Positions 29,884-55,192 of a stretch of DNA of 64,000 bases are shown here, piece by piece. Each line of letters starts with the position of its first letter. Positions within the stretch are counted from its first letter, which is position 1. The notes below the pieces were generated by a model. The model saw only the letters and a program-made list of their open reading frames with translations. It searched no databases and was not told where the DNA came from. Source of the stretch: Escherichia coli (GTDB taxonomy: Bacteria; Pseudomonadota; Gammaproteobacteria; Enterobacterales; Enterobacteriaceae); assembly GCF_016903815.1 (NCBI RefSeq), contig NZ_CP069973.1; one strand, written 5' to 3'. Position numbers and translations under genes: made by a program.

Positions 29884-30160
29884 GGATCCAGGGTATTAAA
29901 AAGAAGATCTATTTATTTAGAGATCTGTTCTATTGTGATCTCTTATTAGGATCGCACTGCCCTGTGGATAACAAGGATCCGGCTTTTAAGATCAACAACC
30001 TGGAAAGGATCATTAACTGTGAATGATCGGTGATCCTGGACCGTATAAGCTGGGATCAGAATGAGGGGTTATACACAACTCAAAAACTGAACAACGGTTG
30101 TTCTTTGGATAACTACCGGTTGATCCAAGCTTCCTGACAGAGTTATCCACAGTAGATCGC
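29884..30160. other. chromosomal replication origin oriC
   Basis: three AT-rich 13-mers GATCTATTTATTT (29906-29918), GATCTGTTCTATT (29922-29934), GATCTCTTATTAG (29937-29949); DnaA boxes TGTGGATAA (29963-29971) and TTATCCACA (30143-30151); dense GATC clustering; located between mnmG and mioC. Confidence 0.95.
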
Positions 30161-35477: not shown

Positions 35478-37346
35478 ATGAGCACTGATAATAAGCAATC
35501 ATTGCCCGCGATTACCCTCGCGGCGATTGGAGTTGTCTACGGCGATATTGGTACCAGCCCGTTATATACACTTCGTGAATGTTTGTCCGGCCAGTTTGGT
35601 TTTGGCGTTGAACGCGATGCCGTGTTTGGCTTTTTATCGCTGATCTTCTGGCTGCTAATCTTTGTGGTTTCCATTAAATATCTCACCTTCGTGATGCGGG
35701 CAGATAACGCCGGTGAAGGGGGGATCCTGACGTTGATGTCGCTTGCCGGGCGTAATACGTCGGCGCGAACCACATCAATGCTGGTGATTATGGGGCTAAT
35801 CGGCGGCAGCTTTTTCTATGGTGAAGTCGTCATAACACCCGCTATTTCGGTGATGTCAGCCATTGAAGGTCTGGAAATCGTCGCCCCGCAGCTGGATACC
35901 TGGATAGTTCCCCTCTCAATCATCGTTCTCACTTTACTATTTATGATTCAAAAACATGGCACGGCTATGGTCGGTAAGCTGTTTGCGCCGATCATGCTGA
36001 CCTGGTTTTTGATTCTGGCAGTACTGGGGTTACGTAGCATTATTGCTAACCCGGAAGTGCTGCATGCGCTGAATCCGATGTGGGCGGTGCATTTCTTCCT
36101 TGAATACAAAACGGTTTCTTTTATTGCATTAGGGGCAGTGGTGCTGTCGATTACGGGGGTCGAGGCGCTGTATGCTGATATGGGGCACTTTGGTAAGTTC
36201 CCTATTCGCCTGGCGTGGTTCACCGTCGTATTACCTTCCTTGACCCTTAATTACTTCGGTCAGGGAGCGTTGTTGTTAAAGAACCCGGAAGCGATTAAGA
36301 ACCCGTTCTTCCTGTTGGCACCGGACTGGGCGCTGATCCCGCTGCTGATCATCGCCGCACTGGCGACGGTAATTGCCTCGCAGGCGGTTATCTCTGGCGT
36401 CTTCTCATTGACGCGTCAGGCGGTACGTCTGGGATATTTGTCGCCGATGCGCATTATTCACACCTCCGAAATGGAGTCAGGGCAAATCTATATTCCGTTT
36501 GTGAACTGGATGCTCTATGTCGCGGTCGTGATTGTGATTGTCAGCTTTGAGCACTCCAGCAACCTGGCGGCGGCGTACGGGATTGCGGTGACCGGAACCA
36601 TGGTGCTGACGTCTATTCTCTCGACTACCGTGGCGCGTCAGAACTGGCACTGGAATAAGTATTTTGTTGCGCTGATCCTGATTGCTTTCCTTTGTGTCGA
36701 TATTCCATTGTTCACCGCTAACCTCGATAAACTGCTCTCCGGCGGCTGGTTGCCATTGAGCCTCGGTACGGTGATGTTTATCGTGATGACCACCTGGAAG
36801 AGCGAACGTTTCCGTTTGCTGCGGCGGATGCATGAACATGGTAACTCTCTGGAGGCGATGATTGCTTCGCTGGAGAAATCACCGCCCGTTCGCGTGCCCG
36901 GGACCGCGGTGTATATGTCGCGTGCAATCAACGTCATTCCCTTTGCGCTGATGCATAACCTTAAACATAACAAGGTATTGCATGAGCGGGTGATTCTGTT
37001 AACTCTGCGCACCGAAGACGCGCCTTATGTCCATAACGTCCGTCGGGTACAGATTGAACAACTGTCGCCCACGTTCTGGCGCGTGGTGGCAAGTTATGGT
37101 TGGCGAGAAACGCCAAACGTGGAAGAAGTATTCCACCGCTGCGGTCTGGAAGGATTAAGTTGCCGGATGATGGAAACCTCCTTCTTTATGTCGCATGAGT
37201 CGTTGATCCTCGGCAAACGCCCGTGGTATTTGCGTCTGCGCGGCAAGCTGTACTTGCTGCTGCAACGTAATGCGCTGCGTGCGCCGGATCAATTTGAAAT
37301 CCCACCAAACAGGGTTATCGAACTGGGTACTCAGGTTGAAATCTAA
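35478..37346 (+). CDS. kup: KUP-family potassium uptake protein
   Basis: 622 aa recognised. Confidence 0.95.
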
Positions 37347-37352
37347 CGCCAG

Positions 37353-37386
37353 ACGCCTCCTTTCTCCATAAGGGGGCGTTTTTTGT
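37353..37386 (+). terminator. Rho-independent terminator of kup
   Basis: ACGCC...GGCGT stem followed by TTTTTT. Confidence 0.6.
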
Positions 37387-37387
37387 G

Positions 37388-38096
37388 CACAGAAAACCCC
37401 CAGCTAGGCTGGGGGTTCCGGAAAGCTTTCAGCTTTGAGCCAGTTATTAAAACCCCTTTTGATTTGTTAAAACACCTTGCGGTCTGGCAACTGCAAGTGT
37501 CAAACAAGAAATCAAAAGGGGGTCCCAATGGGGAACGAAAAGAGCTTAGCGCACACCCGATGGAACTGTAAATATCACATAGTTTTTGCGCCAAAATACC
37601 GAAGACAGGTGTTCTACAGAGAGAAGCGTAGAGCAATAGGCAGTATTTTGAGAAAGCTGTGTGAGTGGAAAAGCGTACGGATTCTGGAAGCTGAATGCTG
37701 TGCAGATCATATCCATATGCTTGTGGAGATCCCGCCCAAAATGAGCGTATCCGGGTTTATGGGATATCTGAAAGGGAAAAGCAGTCTGATGCTTTACGAG
37801 CAGTTTGGTGATTTGAAATTCAAATACAGGAACAGGGAGTTCTGGTGCAGAGGGTACTACGTCGATACAGTGGGTAAGAACACGGCGAAGATACAGGATT
37901 ACATAAAGCACCAGCTTGAAGAGGATAAAATGGGAGAGCAGTTATCGATTCCCTATCCGGGCAGCCCGTTTACGGGCCGTAAGTAACGAAGTTGGATGCA
38001 AATGTCAGATCGTGTGCGCCTGTTAGGGCGCGGCTGGTAAGAGAGCCTTATAGGCGCATTTGAAAAACCTCCGGCTATGCCGGAGGATATTTATTT
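37388..38096 (+). mobile_element. IS200-type insertion sequence (IS200/IS605 family); ends approximate
   Basis: Y1/HuH transposase ORF; perfect 8-bp stem hairpin CCCCCAGC-TAG-GCTGGGGG (37397-37415) typical of the IS200 left end; second stem CCCCTTTT...AAAAGGGG (37447-37519) ending just before the RBS/start; kup-rbsD spacer is about 700 bp longer than the roughly 200 bp I remember for K-12. Confidence 0.7.
37528..37986 (+). CDS. tnpA: IS200 transposase TnpA (HuH Y1 transposase, 152 aa from MGNEKSLAHTRWNCKYH)
   Basis: recognised IS200 TnpA with HuH motif (ADHIHMLVEIPP) and catalytic Tyr region; ORF track starts further upstream. Confidence 0.9.
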   Translation: MGNEKSLAHTRWNCKYHIVFAPKYRRQVFYREKRRAIGSILRKLCEWKSVRILEAECCADHIHMLVEIPPKMSVSGFMGYLKGKSSLMLYEQFGDLKFKYRNREFWCRGYYVDTVGKNTAKIQDYIKHQLEEDKMGEQLSIPYPGSPFTGRK

Positions 38097-38190
38097 TCAT
38101 GGTTAATCACCATGTAAAACGTTTCGAGGTTGATCACATTTCCGTAACTTCACGATGGTTTTCCCAACTCAGTCAGGATTAAACTGCGGG

Positions 38191-38210
38191 TCAGCGAAAC
38201 GTTTCGCTGA
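38191..38210. promoter_or_regulatory. RbsR operator (perfect palindrome TCAGCGAAACGTTTCGCTGA)
   Basis: 20-bp perfect inverted repeat just upstream of rbsD; LacI-family operator architecture. Confidence 0.8.
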
Positions 38211-38221
38211 TGGAGAAAAAA

Positions 38222-38641
38222 ATGAAAAAAGGCACCGTTCTTAATTCTGATATTTCATCGGTGATCTCCCGACTGGGACATACCGATACGCTGGTGGTGT
38301 GTGATGCAGGTTTACCCATCCCCAAAAGTACAACGCGTATCGATATGGCATTAACCCAGGGTGTACCTTCTTTTATGCAGGTGCTGGGCGTCGTCACAAA
38401 TGAAATGCAGGTCGAGGCAGCCATTATCGCGGAAGAGATCAAACAACATAATCCGCAACTCCACGAAACGTTGCTCACTCACCTTGAGCAGCTGCAAAAA
38501 CACCAGGGAAATACCATTGAAATTCGTTACACCACGCATGAACAATTCAAACAACAAACCGCAGAAAGTCAGGCGGTAATTCGCAGCGGAGAATGTTCTC
38601 CGTATGCGAATATCATTCTCTGTGCTGGCGTGACGTTCTGA
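38222..38641 (+). CDS. rbsD: D-ribose pyranase (139 aa from [10 protein letters not shown])
   Basis: recognised RbsD. Confidence 0.93.
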
Positions 38642-46678: not shown

Positions 46679-48220
<1,542 letters not shown>

Positions 48221-48305
48221 CCTTAAAGAAGCGTTCTTTGAAGTGCTCACACAGATTGTCTGATAGAAAGTGAAAAGCAAGGCGTCTTGCGAAGCAGACT
48301 GACAC

Positions 48306-48381
48306 GTCCCCTTCGTCTAGAGGCCCAGGACACCGCCCTTTCACGGCGGTAACAGGGGTTCGAATCCCCTAGGGGACGCCA
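48306..48381 (+). tRNA. gltU: tRNA-Glu (anticodon UUC), spacer tRNA
   Basis: GTCCCCTTCGTCTAGAGGCCCAGGACACCGCCCTTTCACGGCGGTAACAGGGGTTCGAATCCCCTAGGGGACGCCA. Confidence 0.97.
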
Positions 48382-48575
48382 CTTGCTGGTTTGTGAGTGA
48401 AAGTCACCTGCCTTAATATCTCAAAACTCATCTTCGGGTGATGTTTGAGATATTTGCTCTTTAAAAATCTGGATCAAGCTGAAAATTGAAACACTGAACA
48501 ACGAAAGTTGTTCGTGAGTCTCTCAAATTTTCGCAACACGATGATGAATCGAAAGAAACATCTTCGGGTTGTGAG

Positions 48576-51479
<2,904 letters not shown>

Positions 51480-51571
51480 ACAACGCCGAAGATGTTTTGG
51501 CGGATGAGAGAAGATTTTCAGCCTGATACAGATTAAATCAGAACGCAGAAGCGGTCTGATGAAACAGAATT

Positions 51572-51691
51572 TGCCTGGCGGCCGTAGCGCGGTGGTCCCA
51601 CCTGACCCCATGCCGAACTCAGAAGTGAAACGCCGTAGCGCCGATGGTAGTGTGGGGTCTCCCCATGCGAGAGTAGGGAACTGCCAGGCAT
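51572..51691 (+). rRNA. rrfC: 5S ribosomal RNA
   Basis: TGCCTGGCGGC...CTGCCAGGCAT, 120 nt. Confidence 0.97.
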
Positions 51692-51743
51692 CAAATTTAG
51701 CAGTAAGCCGGTCATAAAACCGGTGGTTGTAAAAGAATTCGGT

Positions 51744-51820
51744 GGAGCGGTAGTTCAGTCGGTTAGAATACCTGCCTGTCACGCAGGGGGTCGCGGGTTC
51801 GAGTCCCGTCCGTTCCGCCA
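51744..51820 (+). tRNA. aspT: tRNA-Asp (anticodon GUC)
   Basis: GGAGCGGTAGTTCAGTCGGTTAGAATACCTGCCTGTCACGCAGGGGGTCGCGGGTTCGAGTCCCGTCCGTTCCGCCA. Confidence 0.97.
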
Positions 51821-51828
51821 CCCTAATT

Positions 51829-51904
51829 AGGGGCGTAGTTCAATTGGTAGAGCACCGGTCTCCAAAACCGGGTGTTGGGAGTTCGAGTCTCTCCGCCCCT
51901 GCCA
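51829..51904 (+). tRNA. trpT: tRNA-Trp (anticodon CCA)
   Basis: AGGGGCGTAGTTCAATTGGTAGAGCACCGGTCTCCAAAACCGGGTGTTGGGAGTTCGAGTCTCTCCGCCCCTGCCA. Confidence 0.97.
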
Positions 51905-54840: not shown

Positions 54841-55192
54841 AAGCCCTCCTTGAGTCACCATTATGTGCATAAGATATCGCTGCTGTAGCCCGCTAATTCG
54901 TGAATTTTAGTGGCTGATTCCGGTTTATTTGTGTAAGTGAAGTTGAGTTGTTCTGGCGGTGGAATGATGCTCGCAAAAATGCAGCGGGCAAAGGATGAAC
55001 TACGAGGAAGGGAACAACATTCATACTGAAATTGAATTTTTTTCACTCACTATTTTCTTTTTAAAAAACAACAATTTCTCTTGAAATTATTAAAGACATC
55101 ATAAAAATAGGCCAAAAAATATCTTGTGCTATTCGCAAAATCTATGGTAACTCTTTAGGCATTCCTTCGAACAAGATGCAAGAAAAGACAAA

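What the first reader, a model, noticed from the sequence alone, without database searches (positions are those of the whole stretch)
37388..38096. IS200-type element inserted between kup and the rbs operon
An IS200 TnpA (HuH Y1 transposase) ORF is preceded by a perfect 8-bp stem hairpin and a second stem that ends just before the RBS and start codon; these structures are expected to dampen expression and block read-through from kup. The kup-rbsD spacer is about 700 bp longer here than the roughly 200 bp I remember for K-12. I also recall IS-mediated rearrangements of the rbs operon in E. coli B, so this looks like a recurrent insertion site. Element ends are estimated, since IS200 has no terminal inverted repeats.
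Basis: partly seen in the sequence, partly recalled or inferred. Interest (0 to 1): 0.45.

Follow-up and report, generated by a model that had tools for sequence, protein, structure and literature searches.

The report
IS200C insertion behind the kup terminator
This is an ordinary, intact copy of the small, well-studied insertion sequence IS200C, sitting just after the kup terminator and upstream of the ribose operon in the E. coli ST405 lineage, where public genome annotation already records it.

Summary
An intact IS200C element lies between kup and rbsD. It encodes a 152-aa Y1 HUH transposase (Pfam Y1_Tnp, E=3.8e-38; HUH at residues 61-63, Tyr125). [quoted passage not shown]

The same locus is 100% identical in 93 of 5426 complete E. 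coli genomes (the two checked in papers are ST405). RefSeq annotates it there as "IS200C family transposase".

Empty-site comparisons correct the ends to about 37385-38095. The kup-rbsD spacer is 875 bp here against 166 bp in K-12.

The "recurrent insertion site" remark is not supported. Only this one clone has IS200 here. E. coli B carries a different element, IS150, 30 bp further upstream.

Extra findings:
- Nine of nine independent IS200C copies sit directly after an intrinsic terminator hairpin and its T-run.
- The two element ends carry homologous hairpins, each preceded by AAAA, which is complementary to the T-run target.
- Carrier genomes hold 12-35 matching places (about as many IS200 copies), against a median of 1.

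Verdict: already known, low interest.

The parts
35478..37346 (+). kup (low-affinity K+ transporter), the upstream neighbour
   Evidence: ORF of 622 aa. Annotated as kup in the identical locus of strain 7/2.
37353..37384 (+). Intrinsic terminator of kup. Stem 37353-37362 / 37370-37379 and T-run 37379-37384. This is the target the IS landed behind.
   Evidence: DNA fold -8.6 kcal/mol. Flagged as terminator-like. Present in K-12 and other empty sites.
37385..38095 (+). IS200C element (inserted DNA). The 708-bp core 37386-38093 is shared with all other copies. The G at 37385 and the TT at 38094-38095 belong to the insert at four other loci. The register is ambiguous by two T (37383-38093, 37384-38094 or 37385-38095).
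   Evidence: Absent from K-12. Full-length matches in 2063 genomes. Identical ends at 9 loci. Empty sites at guaA, pgm, pheP-ybdG and yfeX-yfeW show a 711-nt insert. Published numbering (terminator at nt 12-34) puts nt 1 at 37384 (PMC4513863).
37395..37417 (+). Left-end hairpin: perfect 10-bp stem, loop TAG. It is the bidirectional terminator that blocks transcription coming from kup, and the presumed TnpA-binding hairpin of the left end.
   Evidence: Corresponds to nt 12-34 of IS200 in PMC4513863, which is reported to stop about 85% of upstream transcripts (PMC5435999).
37395..37518 (+). Match to Rfam RF01405 (STnc490), which covers the tnpA 5' region (5'tnpA sRNA region)
   Evidence: 146.4 bits against a gathering score of 56, E=1.9e-31, full model 1-124.
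37453..37522 (+). [quoted passage not shown]
   Evidence: MFE and centroid folds. Inverted repeat I2, 94% complementary. Corresponds to nt 69-138 in PMC4513863, with about 20-fold repression reported (PMC5435999).
37447..37537 (-). art200 antisense sRNA, placed by homology only. The 5' end is at IS200 nt 153/154 and the RNA is about 90 nt long.
   Evidence: Coordinates transferred from PMC4513863 using tnpA ATG = 37528. No expression data here. The promoter scan found no consensus promoter, in line with the paper's remark that the -10 element is almost unrecognisable.
37528..37986 (+). tnpA, a Y1 HUH transposase of 152 aa. HUH (HIH) at residues 61-63, catalytic Tyr125.
   Evidence: Pfam Y1_Tnp E=3.8e-38. 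Motifs located. PDB relatives 2ec2, 2f4f/2f5g, the IS608 TnpA 2a6m, and 2xm3 (depositor name only 'transposase'). At the same position RefSeq annotates WP_000526135.1 in a locus whose DNA is 100% identical.
38068..38086 (+). Right-end hairpin: perfect 8-bp stem, loop TAT. It is terminator-like on both strands and homologous to the left-end hairpin.
   Evidence: Ungapped alignment of the left and right hairpin regions is 18/23 identical with two compensatory stem changes, and 0 of 1000 shuffles score as well.
38096..38221 (+). Native kup-rbsD spacer left downstream of the IS. It holds the palindrome TCAGCGAAACGTTTCGCTGA (38191-38210), which I take from memory to be the RbsR operator.
   Evidence: Collinear with K-12 with only 2 substitutions. 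The operator and promoter assignment rests on recalled knowledge and was not tested.
38222..38641 (+). rbsD, first gene of the ribose operon, intact
   Evidence: Annotated at this position in the identical locus of strain 7/2.

Best explanation
This is an intact copy of the insertion sequence IS200C, of the IS200 group in the IS200/IS605 family. It is inserted in the T-tail of the kup intrinsic terminator, 128 bp upstream of rbsD, in the same direction as both genes.

The element consists of:
- a left end with a 10-bp hairpin that doubles as a bidirectional terminator;
- a 5'UTR stem that hides the ribosome-binding site;
- one gene, tnpA, for a Y1 HUH single-strand DNA transposase;
- a right end with a related 8-bp hairpin and a T-rich tail.

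By homology with IS608 and ISDra2, TnpA would bind the two subterminal hairpins on the top strand, cut with Tyr125, excise a single-stranded circle and paste it 3' of a short target on the lagging-strand template. Here the target is the T-run that follows a terminator hairpin.

Expression is kept very low in four ways: the upstream host terminator, the element's own left-end terminator, sequestration of the Shine-Dalgarno sequence, and (by homology) the antisense RNA art200 together with Hfq.

The copy arose once in an ancestor of the ST405 clone, during an expansion of IS200C that left 12-35 copies per genome. It most probably leaves both kup and rbs function unchanged.

Shown here: identity of the element, its anatomy, its ends, its distribution, and its position behind a terminator. 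Inferred: the chemistry of transposition, the guide/target pairing, art200, and neutrality for rbs.
For: - Transposase: Pfam Y1_Tnp 130.7 bits. HUH and Tyr125 present; Y125F is catalytically dead in PMC4513863. Sequence relatives with solved structures include the IS608 TnpA.
- RNA: Rfam STnc490 at 146 bits.
- Folds: left-end hairpin, SD-sequestering stem and right-end hairpin all fold better than shuffles.
- Public annotation: the identical 1201-bp locus is annotated 'IS200/IS605-like element IS200C family transposase' in 93 complete genomes.
- Insertion: K-12 lacks the element.
- Family anatomy: no terminal inverted repeats. The left and right hairpins are homologous, with compensatory changes.
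- Target: nine of nine independent copies abut a terminator hairpin (-14 to -28 kcal/mol) plus a T-run on their left side. A 2026 preprint reports terminator-like sequences immediately upstream of ISs, strongest for IS200/IS605.
- Replication strand: oriC lies at 29906-29954, so the IS top strand is the lagging-strand template. The same holds for wzzB, yfeX and pheP-ybdG by K-12 annotation and for three more loci from recalled map positions. This agrees with the known family bias (PMC5371812).
- Lineage and copy number: WCHEC96200 and WCHEC4533, both among the listed carriers, are described as ST405. The listed carrier genomes have 12-35 places against a median of 1.
Against: - Nothing contradicts the identification.
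- At four other loci the insert is 711 nt. At kup the net gain is 709 nt, and the native T5-G-T4 tail reads T6-[IS]-T4. No sampled empty site gives an exact join.
- The TT at the right boundary could be a 2-bp target duplication, which the family is said not to make (PMC7290912).
- The position behind terminators could reflect survival of harmless insertions rather than target choice.
- Activity, art200 expression and the effect on rbs were not measured.
- Rfam places STnc490 on the tnpA-sense strand, while PMC4513863 calls STnc490 the antisense RNA.
Confidence: 0.95

Rival explanations
1. The kup-rbsD spacer is a recurrent hot spot for insertion sequences, which predisposes the rbs operon to rearrangement.
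For: Two different ISs occupy this 166-bp spacer in two lineages: IS200C in the ST405 clone and IS150 in E. coli B REL606. I recall that the B-strain IS150 mediates rbs deletions in the long-term evolution experiment (Cooper et al. 2001). I did not check that here.
Against: 5316 of 5411 genomes have an uninterrupted spacer, and 93 of the 95 exceptions match the count of IS200C carriers. With a query that also detects the IS150 position, at most 102 genomes are interrupted. The two ISs sit 30 bp apart on opposite sides of the kup terminator. The listed IS200 carriers share 100% identical junctions, which points to one event.
Confidence: 0.05
2. The insertion is kept because it changes ribose-operon expression, for example by insulating rbs from kup read-through or by moving upstream promoter elements away. 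On this view it is adaptive for ST405 rather than neutral.
For: The IS lies 128 bp upstream of the rbsD ATG and adds two further terminator-like hairpins between kup and rbs. It is present in all 93 carrier genomes.
Against: The 126 bp next to rbsD, including the operator palindrome, are collinear with K-12. kup already ends in its own terminator, so the extra insulation adds little. Eight other copies sit in equivalent positions behind terminators at unrelated genes, so the location follows from target choice. Presence throughout a clone is expected from descent alone.
Confidence: 0.08
3. The copy is an immobile relic whose retained role is to supply regulatory RNAs (5'tnpA and art200) to the host, as proposed for Salmonella IS200.
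For: [quoted passage not shown] The 5' region here matches Rfam STnc490 almost perfectly.
Against: The tnpA ORF and both ends are intact. Copies at other loci are 100% identical. Copy number ranges from 12 to 35 among genomes that share the identical kup junction, which argues for recent, probably continuing, transposition in this clone. A regulatory RNA role is not excluded, but it would be in addition to mobility.
Confidence: 0.1
4. The ORF is a REP-associated tyrosine transposase (RAYT, TnpA-REP), a domesticated relative of IS200 transposases, rather than an insertion sequence.
For: As far as I recall, RAYTs also fall in the Y1_Tnp family.
Against: The ORF lies inside a discrete unit of 708-711 bp that is absent from K-12. 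That unit is present in up to 35 copies with identical ends. It is flanked by its own two hairpins and not by REP arrays, and RefSeq names it IS200C.
Confidence: 0.01

Closest known systems
IS200 of Salmonella enterica (707 bp; Lam & Roth; Beuzon & Casadesus; Ellis et al. 2015, PMC4513863) and its E. coli isoform IS200C
   Same: The anatomy is the same, and in the same register: terminator hairpin at nt 12-34, SD-sequestering stem at nt 69-138, tnpA ATG at nt 145, and a 152-aa TnpA with Tyr125. The 5' region gives a full-length Rfam STnc490 match. RefSeq names this exact protein an IS200C family transposase.
   Different: Nothing of substance. The length measured from empty sites is 709-711 nt rather than 707. 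This copy's junction is 2 nt short of the pattern seen at four other loci.
IS608 (Helicobacter pylori) and ISDra2 (Deinococcus), the mechanistic models of the IS200/IS605 family
   Same: All have a Y1 HUH TnpA (PDB sequence matches at E=4e-19 to 2a6m and 2e-16 to 2xm3). All have subterminal hairpins at both ends, no terminal inverted repeats, insertion 3' of a short specific target, and the top strand on the lagging-strand template. A short sequence 5' of each hairpin foot (here AAAA) is complementary to the target (here a T-run).
   Different: IS200C has no tnpB. Its target is a T-run behind a hairpin instead of TTAC or TTGAT. The guide/target pairing is inferred here from sequence and has not been demonstrated.
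IS1541 of Yersinia pestis/pseudotuberculosis and IS200 of S. Typhi (high-copy IS200 expansions)
   Same: A lineage-specific expansion to tens of identical copies: more than 50 in Y. pestis and 26 in S. Typhi (PMC5435999), against 12-35 in the ST405 carriers here.
   Different: The host lineage is E. coli ST405. The pangenome study PMC11774025 lists IS200C as the dominant transposable element of one E. coli phylon, so the expansion itself has been noticed before.
IS150 upstream of rbs in E. coli B (REL606)
   Same: An IS in the same kup-rbsD spacer, in the same orientation as rbs.
   Different: It belongs to the IS3 family (DDE transposase), is about 1.4 kb long and has a 3-bp GAC duplication. 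It is inserted 8 nt after the kup stop, upstream of the kup terminator and 30 bp away from the IS200C site.

Membership tests
IS200/IS605 family, IS200 group | Encodes a Y1 HUH transposase (TnpA) with the HUH motif and a single catalytic tyrosine | tested here: met
   Pfam PF01797 E=3.8e-38. HIH at residues 61-63 and Tyr125. PDB relatives 2ec2, 2a6m and 2xm3.
IS200/IS605 family, IS200 group | tnpA only, no tnpB; total length about 0.7 kb | tested here: met
   The insert is 708-711 bp. tnpA is the only ORF supported as a gene; the mechanical ORFs that overlap it on the other strand have no support.
IS200/IS605 family, IS200 group | No terminal inverted repeats | tested here: met
   The inverted-repeat search over 37370-38110 found no pair linking the two termini.
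IS200/IS605 family, IS200 group | Subterminal hairpins at both ends, the TnpA binding sites | tested here: met
   Left-end 10-bp stem at 37395-37417 and right-end 8-bp stem at 38068-38086. The two are homologous, 18/23 identical with two compensatory changes. Binding by TnpA was not tested.
IS200/IS605 family, IS200 group | Inserts 3' of a specific short target sequence that abuts the left end | tested here: met
   All nine loci have a T-run immediately 5' of the left end. Empty sites at four loci show that the T-run was there before insertion.
IS200/IS605 family, IS200 group | No target-site duplication | tested here: inconclusive
   The insert at guaA, pgm, pheP-ybdG and yfeX-yfeW is 711 nt with T's on both boundaries. 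It is either 711 nt with no duplication or 709 nt plus a TT duplication, and sequence alone cannot separate the two.
IS200/IS605 family, IS200 group | Multiple copies with identical ends at unrelated loci (mobility) | tested here: met
   Full-length copies in 2063 genomes, up to 35 places per genome. Nine loci have identical ends and different flanks.
IS200C isoform (ISfinder name) | High nucleotide identity to the ISfinder IS200C reference sequence | not testable with these tools
   ISfinder is not available here. As a proxy, at this position RefSeq annotates WP_000526135.1 as 'IS200/IS605-like element IS200C family transposase' in a locus that is 100% identical at the DNA level.
Rfam RF01405 STnc490 (IS200 5' region RNA) | Covariance-model score above the gathering threshold | tested here: met
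   146.4 bits against 56, full model length, on the + strand. The strand is the tnpA-sense strand, whereas PMC4513863 describes STnc490/art200 as antisense.
art200 antisense regulation (Ellis 2015) | An antisense transcript starting at IS200 nt 153/154 that pairs with the tnpA 5'UTR | not testable with these tools
   Only the homologous sequence is present. No RNA data are available, and the consensus scan found no promoter.

The most novel reading that the evidence does not exclude
IS200C may actively select intrinsic terminators as its targets. A GC-rich hairpin followed by a T-run on single-stranded DNA mimics the element's own right end, which is a hairpin plus ATATTTATT. The AAAA that sits 5' of each IS hairpin would act as a guide for the T-run. 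This would give the element a built-in safe-haven choice that also shields tnpA from read-through. It would also explain how IS200C, an element described as barely mobile, reached 12-35 copies in ST405 without inactivating genes at any of the nine sites sampled.
Probability: 0.3. Interest if true: 0.4.

Novelty: already known. Interest (0 to 1): 0.12.

Why it matters
As a finding it matters little. It is a known insertion sequence, at a locus already annotated in RefSeq, and it most likely has no effect on kup or rbs.

It has modest practical value:
- The kup::IS200C::rbsD junction marks the clone that includes ST405, a globally spread multidrug-resistant lineage.
- The high and variable IS200C copy number in that clone shows that this supposedly dormant element has been active recently in E. 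coli.
- The uniform placement behind terminators is a clean natural data set for working out how IS200 chooses targets. As far as I could find, that has been shown experimentally only for its relatives IS608 and ISDra2.

Tried and rejected
- A first K-12 alignment suggested a 708-bp element (37386-38093) inserted after a pre-existing TTTTTG. Empty sites at guaA, pgm, pheP-ybdG and yfeX-yfeW showed that the G and two T's come with the insert, so I rejected the 708-bp parse.
- I searched for an exact empty site for the kup locus with two reconstructions, T6-G-T4 and T8. Neither exists among 5411 genomes; all of the best hits read T5-G-T4. The 2-nt irregularity at this junction stays unexplained.
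- The 13-mer consensus GATCTNTTNTTTT found nothing in the window. The exact K-12 oriC left-end sequence did.
- The sigma-70 scan found no promoter for tnpA or art200. This is uninformative, because both promoters are reported to be weak or non-consensus.
- I tried to read the IS200/IS605 'peel and paste' review by DOI for the published IS200 target. It is not held.
- Searches for papers on IS200 target choice or IS1541 and terminators returned only indirect mentions.
- The weak Rfam hit to Yersinia Ysr202 (28.5 bits against a gathering score of 315) is only the right-end hairpin. I dismissed it.
- I considered and rejected the RAYT reading (see rivals).

Full report
**What is there.** kup ends at 37346 and rbsD starts at 38222, so the spacer is 875 bp. 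In K-12 MG1655 the same spacer is 166 bp. A pairwise alignment shows one block of about 709 bp that K-12 lacks, with collinear sequence on both sides. The block contains one supported gene, at 37528-37986 (+). Its 152-aa product matches Pfam PF01797 (Y1_Tnp, "Transposase IS200 like") at E=3.8e-38 over the whole profile. It carries the HUH motif (HIH, residues 61-63) and Tyr125; the Y125F mutant is the catalytically dead control in Ellis et al. 2015 (PMC4513863). Its nearest relatives with solved structures are Y1 transposases, including the IS608 TnpA 2a6m.

**It is already annotated.** The 1201 bases around the element are 100% identical in strain 7/2 and 29 other listed genomes. In total, 93 of 5426 complete E. 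coli genomes hold the full locus in one piece. RefSeq annotates the gene there as "IS200/IS605-like element IS200C family transposase", between kup and rbsD. Two of the listed carriers, WCHEC96200 and WCHEC4533, are described in papers as ST405, phylogroup D.

**Anatomy against the published IS200.**
- The left 160 nt fold into three parts: a perfect 10-bp hairpin (37395-37417, loop TAG), a small hairpin, and a long stem (37453-37522) whose 3' arm contains the Shine-Dalgarno sequence AAGGGGGU, 5 nt before the ATG. The fold has z=-4.25, and no shuffle out of 200 folds as well.
- Rfam RF01405 (STnc490) matches 37395-37518 at 146 bits, against a gathering score of 56.
- Ellis et al. place the terminator at nt 12-34, the SD-sequestering stem at nt 69-138, and the art200 5' ends at nt 153/154, complementary to the first three tnpA codons. 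Setting nt 1 at 37384 reproduces all three positions to within one base.
- The published functions therefore transfer by homology. The left hairpin is a bidirectional terminator that stops about 85% of incoming transcripts, and the stem represses translation about 20-fold (PMC5435999). art200 and Hfq add further repression (PMC4513863).
However, the 8-bp perfect stem it mentions is the right-end hairpin (38068-38086), and the second stem includes the RBS rather than ending before it.

**Ends.**
- Eight further full-length copies were fetched from eight other loci (ybdG, ynfU, an unannotated site, guaA, icd, yfeX, pgm, wzzB). All share exactly the sequence TGCACAG...GGATATTTA with the window copy, and the flanks differ beyond it.
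- All nine left flanks end in T-run+G, and all nine right flanks begin with TT.
- Empty sites settle which of these bases belong to the insert. At guaA and pgm the best empty alleles among about 5400 genomes are 3 nt shorter than the joined flanks. Base-by-base comparison shows T-run | G+708+TT | flank. K-12 gives the same result at pheP-ybdG and yfeX-yfeW.
- The inserted DNA is therefore 711 nt. It is either a 711-nt element with no duplication or a 709-nt element with a TT duplication, and the T's make the two indistinguishable.
- In window coordinates this is 37385-38095, or the same span shifted left by one or two bases.
- The kup copy is slightly irregular. All of the best-matching empty sites read GCG-T5-G-T4-CATGG, while the window reads GCG-T6-[G...A]-T4-CATGG. 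That is a net gain of 709 nt. Neither reconstruction of an exact empty site exists in the collection. At least one extra 2-nt change, or an unsampled ancestral allele, is needed.

**Family features.**
- No inverted repeat links the two termini.
- The two subterminal hairpins are homologous. AAAACCCCCAGCTAGGCTGGGGG and AAAACCTCCGGCTATGCCGGAGG are 18/23 identical without gaps, and two stem differences are compensatory. No shuffle out of 1000 scores as well.
- This is the IS200/IS605 architecture summarised in PMC7290912: no terminal inverted repeats, a hairpin at each end, and insertion 3' of a specific tetra- or pentanucleotide that is recognised by a guide sequence at the 5' foot of the hairpin.
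- In IS200C the four bases 5' of both hairpin feet are AAAA, which is complementary to the T-run target. I infer an IS608-like guide/target pairing, but nothing here tests it.

**Where it lands.** In nine of nine loci, the 45 nt to the left of the element fold into a strong hairpin (-14 to -28 kcal/mol) that ends 5-9 nt before the junction and is followed by the T-run. This is an intrinsic terminator. The right flanks show nothing comparable. In six loci the terminator belongs to a gene that ends within about 60 nt on the same strand: kup, guaA, icd, yfeX, pgm and wzzB. [quoted passage not shown] The general pattern is therefore on record. Active target choice and survival of harmless insertions would both produce it. 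The element's own right end (hairpin plus ATATTTATT) is itself scored as terminator-like, which suggests that host terminators may be recognised as right-end mimics. That is the "novel case" below.

**Replication strand.** The K-12 oriC left-end sequence lies at 29906-29954 (+). The IS is therefore 7.4 kb clockwise of the origin, and its top strand is the lagging-strand template. The same holds for the wzzB, yfeX and pheP-ybdG copies using K-12 annotation, and for guaA, pgm and icd using map positions I recall. That makes seven of seven. This matches the known bias of the family (PMC5371812). It is partly confounded by the co-orientation of genes with replication.

**Copy number and activity.**
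- With the element alone as query, 2063 genomes hold a near-full-length copy. The median among the 3096 genomes with any match is 1 place, and the maximum is 35.
- The listed carriers of the kup junction have 12-35 places, and the other copies fetched are 100% identical.
- This spread, among genomes that share an identical junction, argues for recent and possibly continuing transposition. The numbers are comparable with the 26 copies in S. Typhi (PMC5435999).
- A pangenome study lists IS200C as the dominant transposable element of one E. coli phylon (PMC11774025).

**Is the spacer a hot spot?**
- 5316 of 5411 genomes match at least 80% of a 261-bp K-12 query across the spacer in one piece. The 95 exceptions are accounted for almost entirely by the 93 IS200C carriers; the two split genomes listed break at the IS200C position.
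- With a query that also splits at the IS150 position, 102 genomes are interrupted.
- E. coli B REL606 carries IS150 between kup and rbsD. It is inserted 8 nt after the kup stop with a GAC duplication, upstream of the kup terminator and 30 bp from the IS200C site.
Recurrence at this site is not supported.

**Effect on neighbours.** kup keeps its stop codon and its terminator. The 126 bp upstream of rbsD are collinear with K-12, with two substitutions. They include the palindrome TCAGCGAAACGTTTCGCTGA, which I recall as the RbsR operator. The right-end hairpin with its T-rich tail should stop the weak tnpA transcription before it reaches rbs. I infer that the insertion is neutral. This was not tested.

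**Verdict.** The finding is a correct identification of a known element that is already annotated at this locus in public genomes. Novelty: already known. Interest: low. The uniform position behind terminators, the AAAA/T-run complementarity and the ST405 expansion are the only points worth a follow-up.

Noticed in passing
window 37379-37386 and 38093-38098; L012, L013, L014: At four other loci the IS200C insert is 711 nt (G + 708 + TT). At kup the net gain is 709 nt, and the native T5-G-T4 tail reads T6-[IS]-T4. No genome in the collection has an empty site that joins exactly, so a 2-nt irregularity at this junction is unexplained.
   Followed up: partly
L004-L011 (left 60 nt of each) and window 37353-37384: Nine of nine independent IS200C copies sit directly after an intrinsic terminator hairpin plus T-run. 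In six cases the terminator belongs to a gene that ends within about 60 nt on the same strand.
   Followed up: partly
window 37393-37417 and 38064-38086: The left-end and right-end hairpins are homologous (18/23 identical, two compensatory stem changes). Both are preceded by AAAA, which is complementary to the T-run target. This suggests IS608-like guide/target pairing.
   Followed up: partly
window 37395-37518: Rfam RF01405 STnc490 matches the tnpA-sense strand, although Ellis et al. 2015 describe STnc490/art200 as antisense to tnpA. The Rfam model appears to represent the sense 5'UTR (5'tnpA) orientation.
   Followed up: no
carrier genomes listed (e.g. NZ_CP086678.1 with 12 places, NZ_CP173528.1 with 35): Genomes that share the identical kup::IS200C junction differ nearly three-fold in IS200C copy number (12-35), against a species median of 1. 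This indicates a recent expansion in the clone that includes ST405.
   Followed up: partly
L003 3546-5160 (E. coli B REL606): IS150 lies in the same spacer, inserted 8 nt after the kup stop with a GAC target duplication. It is upstream of the kup terminator and 30 bp from the IS200C site.
   Followed up: yes
window 29906-29954: An exact copy of the K-12 oriC left end (the three 13-mers) lies here. The window therefore spans the replication origin, and the IS is 7.4 kb clockwise of it.
   Followed up: partly
window 46679-51904: A complete rRNA operon is present: 16S, tRNA-Glu, 23S, 5S, tRNA-Asp, tRNA-Trp. There are also Rfam hits to StyR-44 (48459-48567), STnc410 (19448-19605) and Rev39_5p_UTR (55122-55411).
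   Followed up: no
L011 against L015 (wzzB-hisI spacer): At this locus the filled site exceeds the K-12 empty site by 713 nt, not 711. The extra two bases are T's in the terminator tail. They are either a strain polymorphism or slippage of the cleavage register in the homopolymer.
   Followed up: no
NZ_CP044403.1 position 1 (hit H130): This chromosome record starts close to the IS200C insertion point in the kup-rbsD spacer (its match begins at query base 86 of the K-12 spacer query). The locus is split across the record ends and escapes the count of 93 carriers.
   Followed up: no
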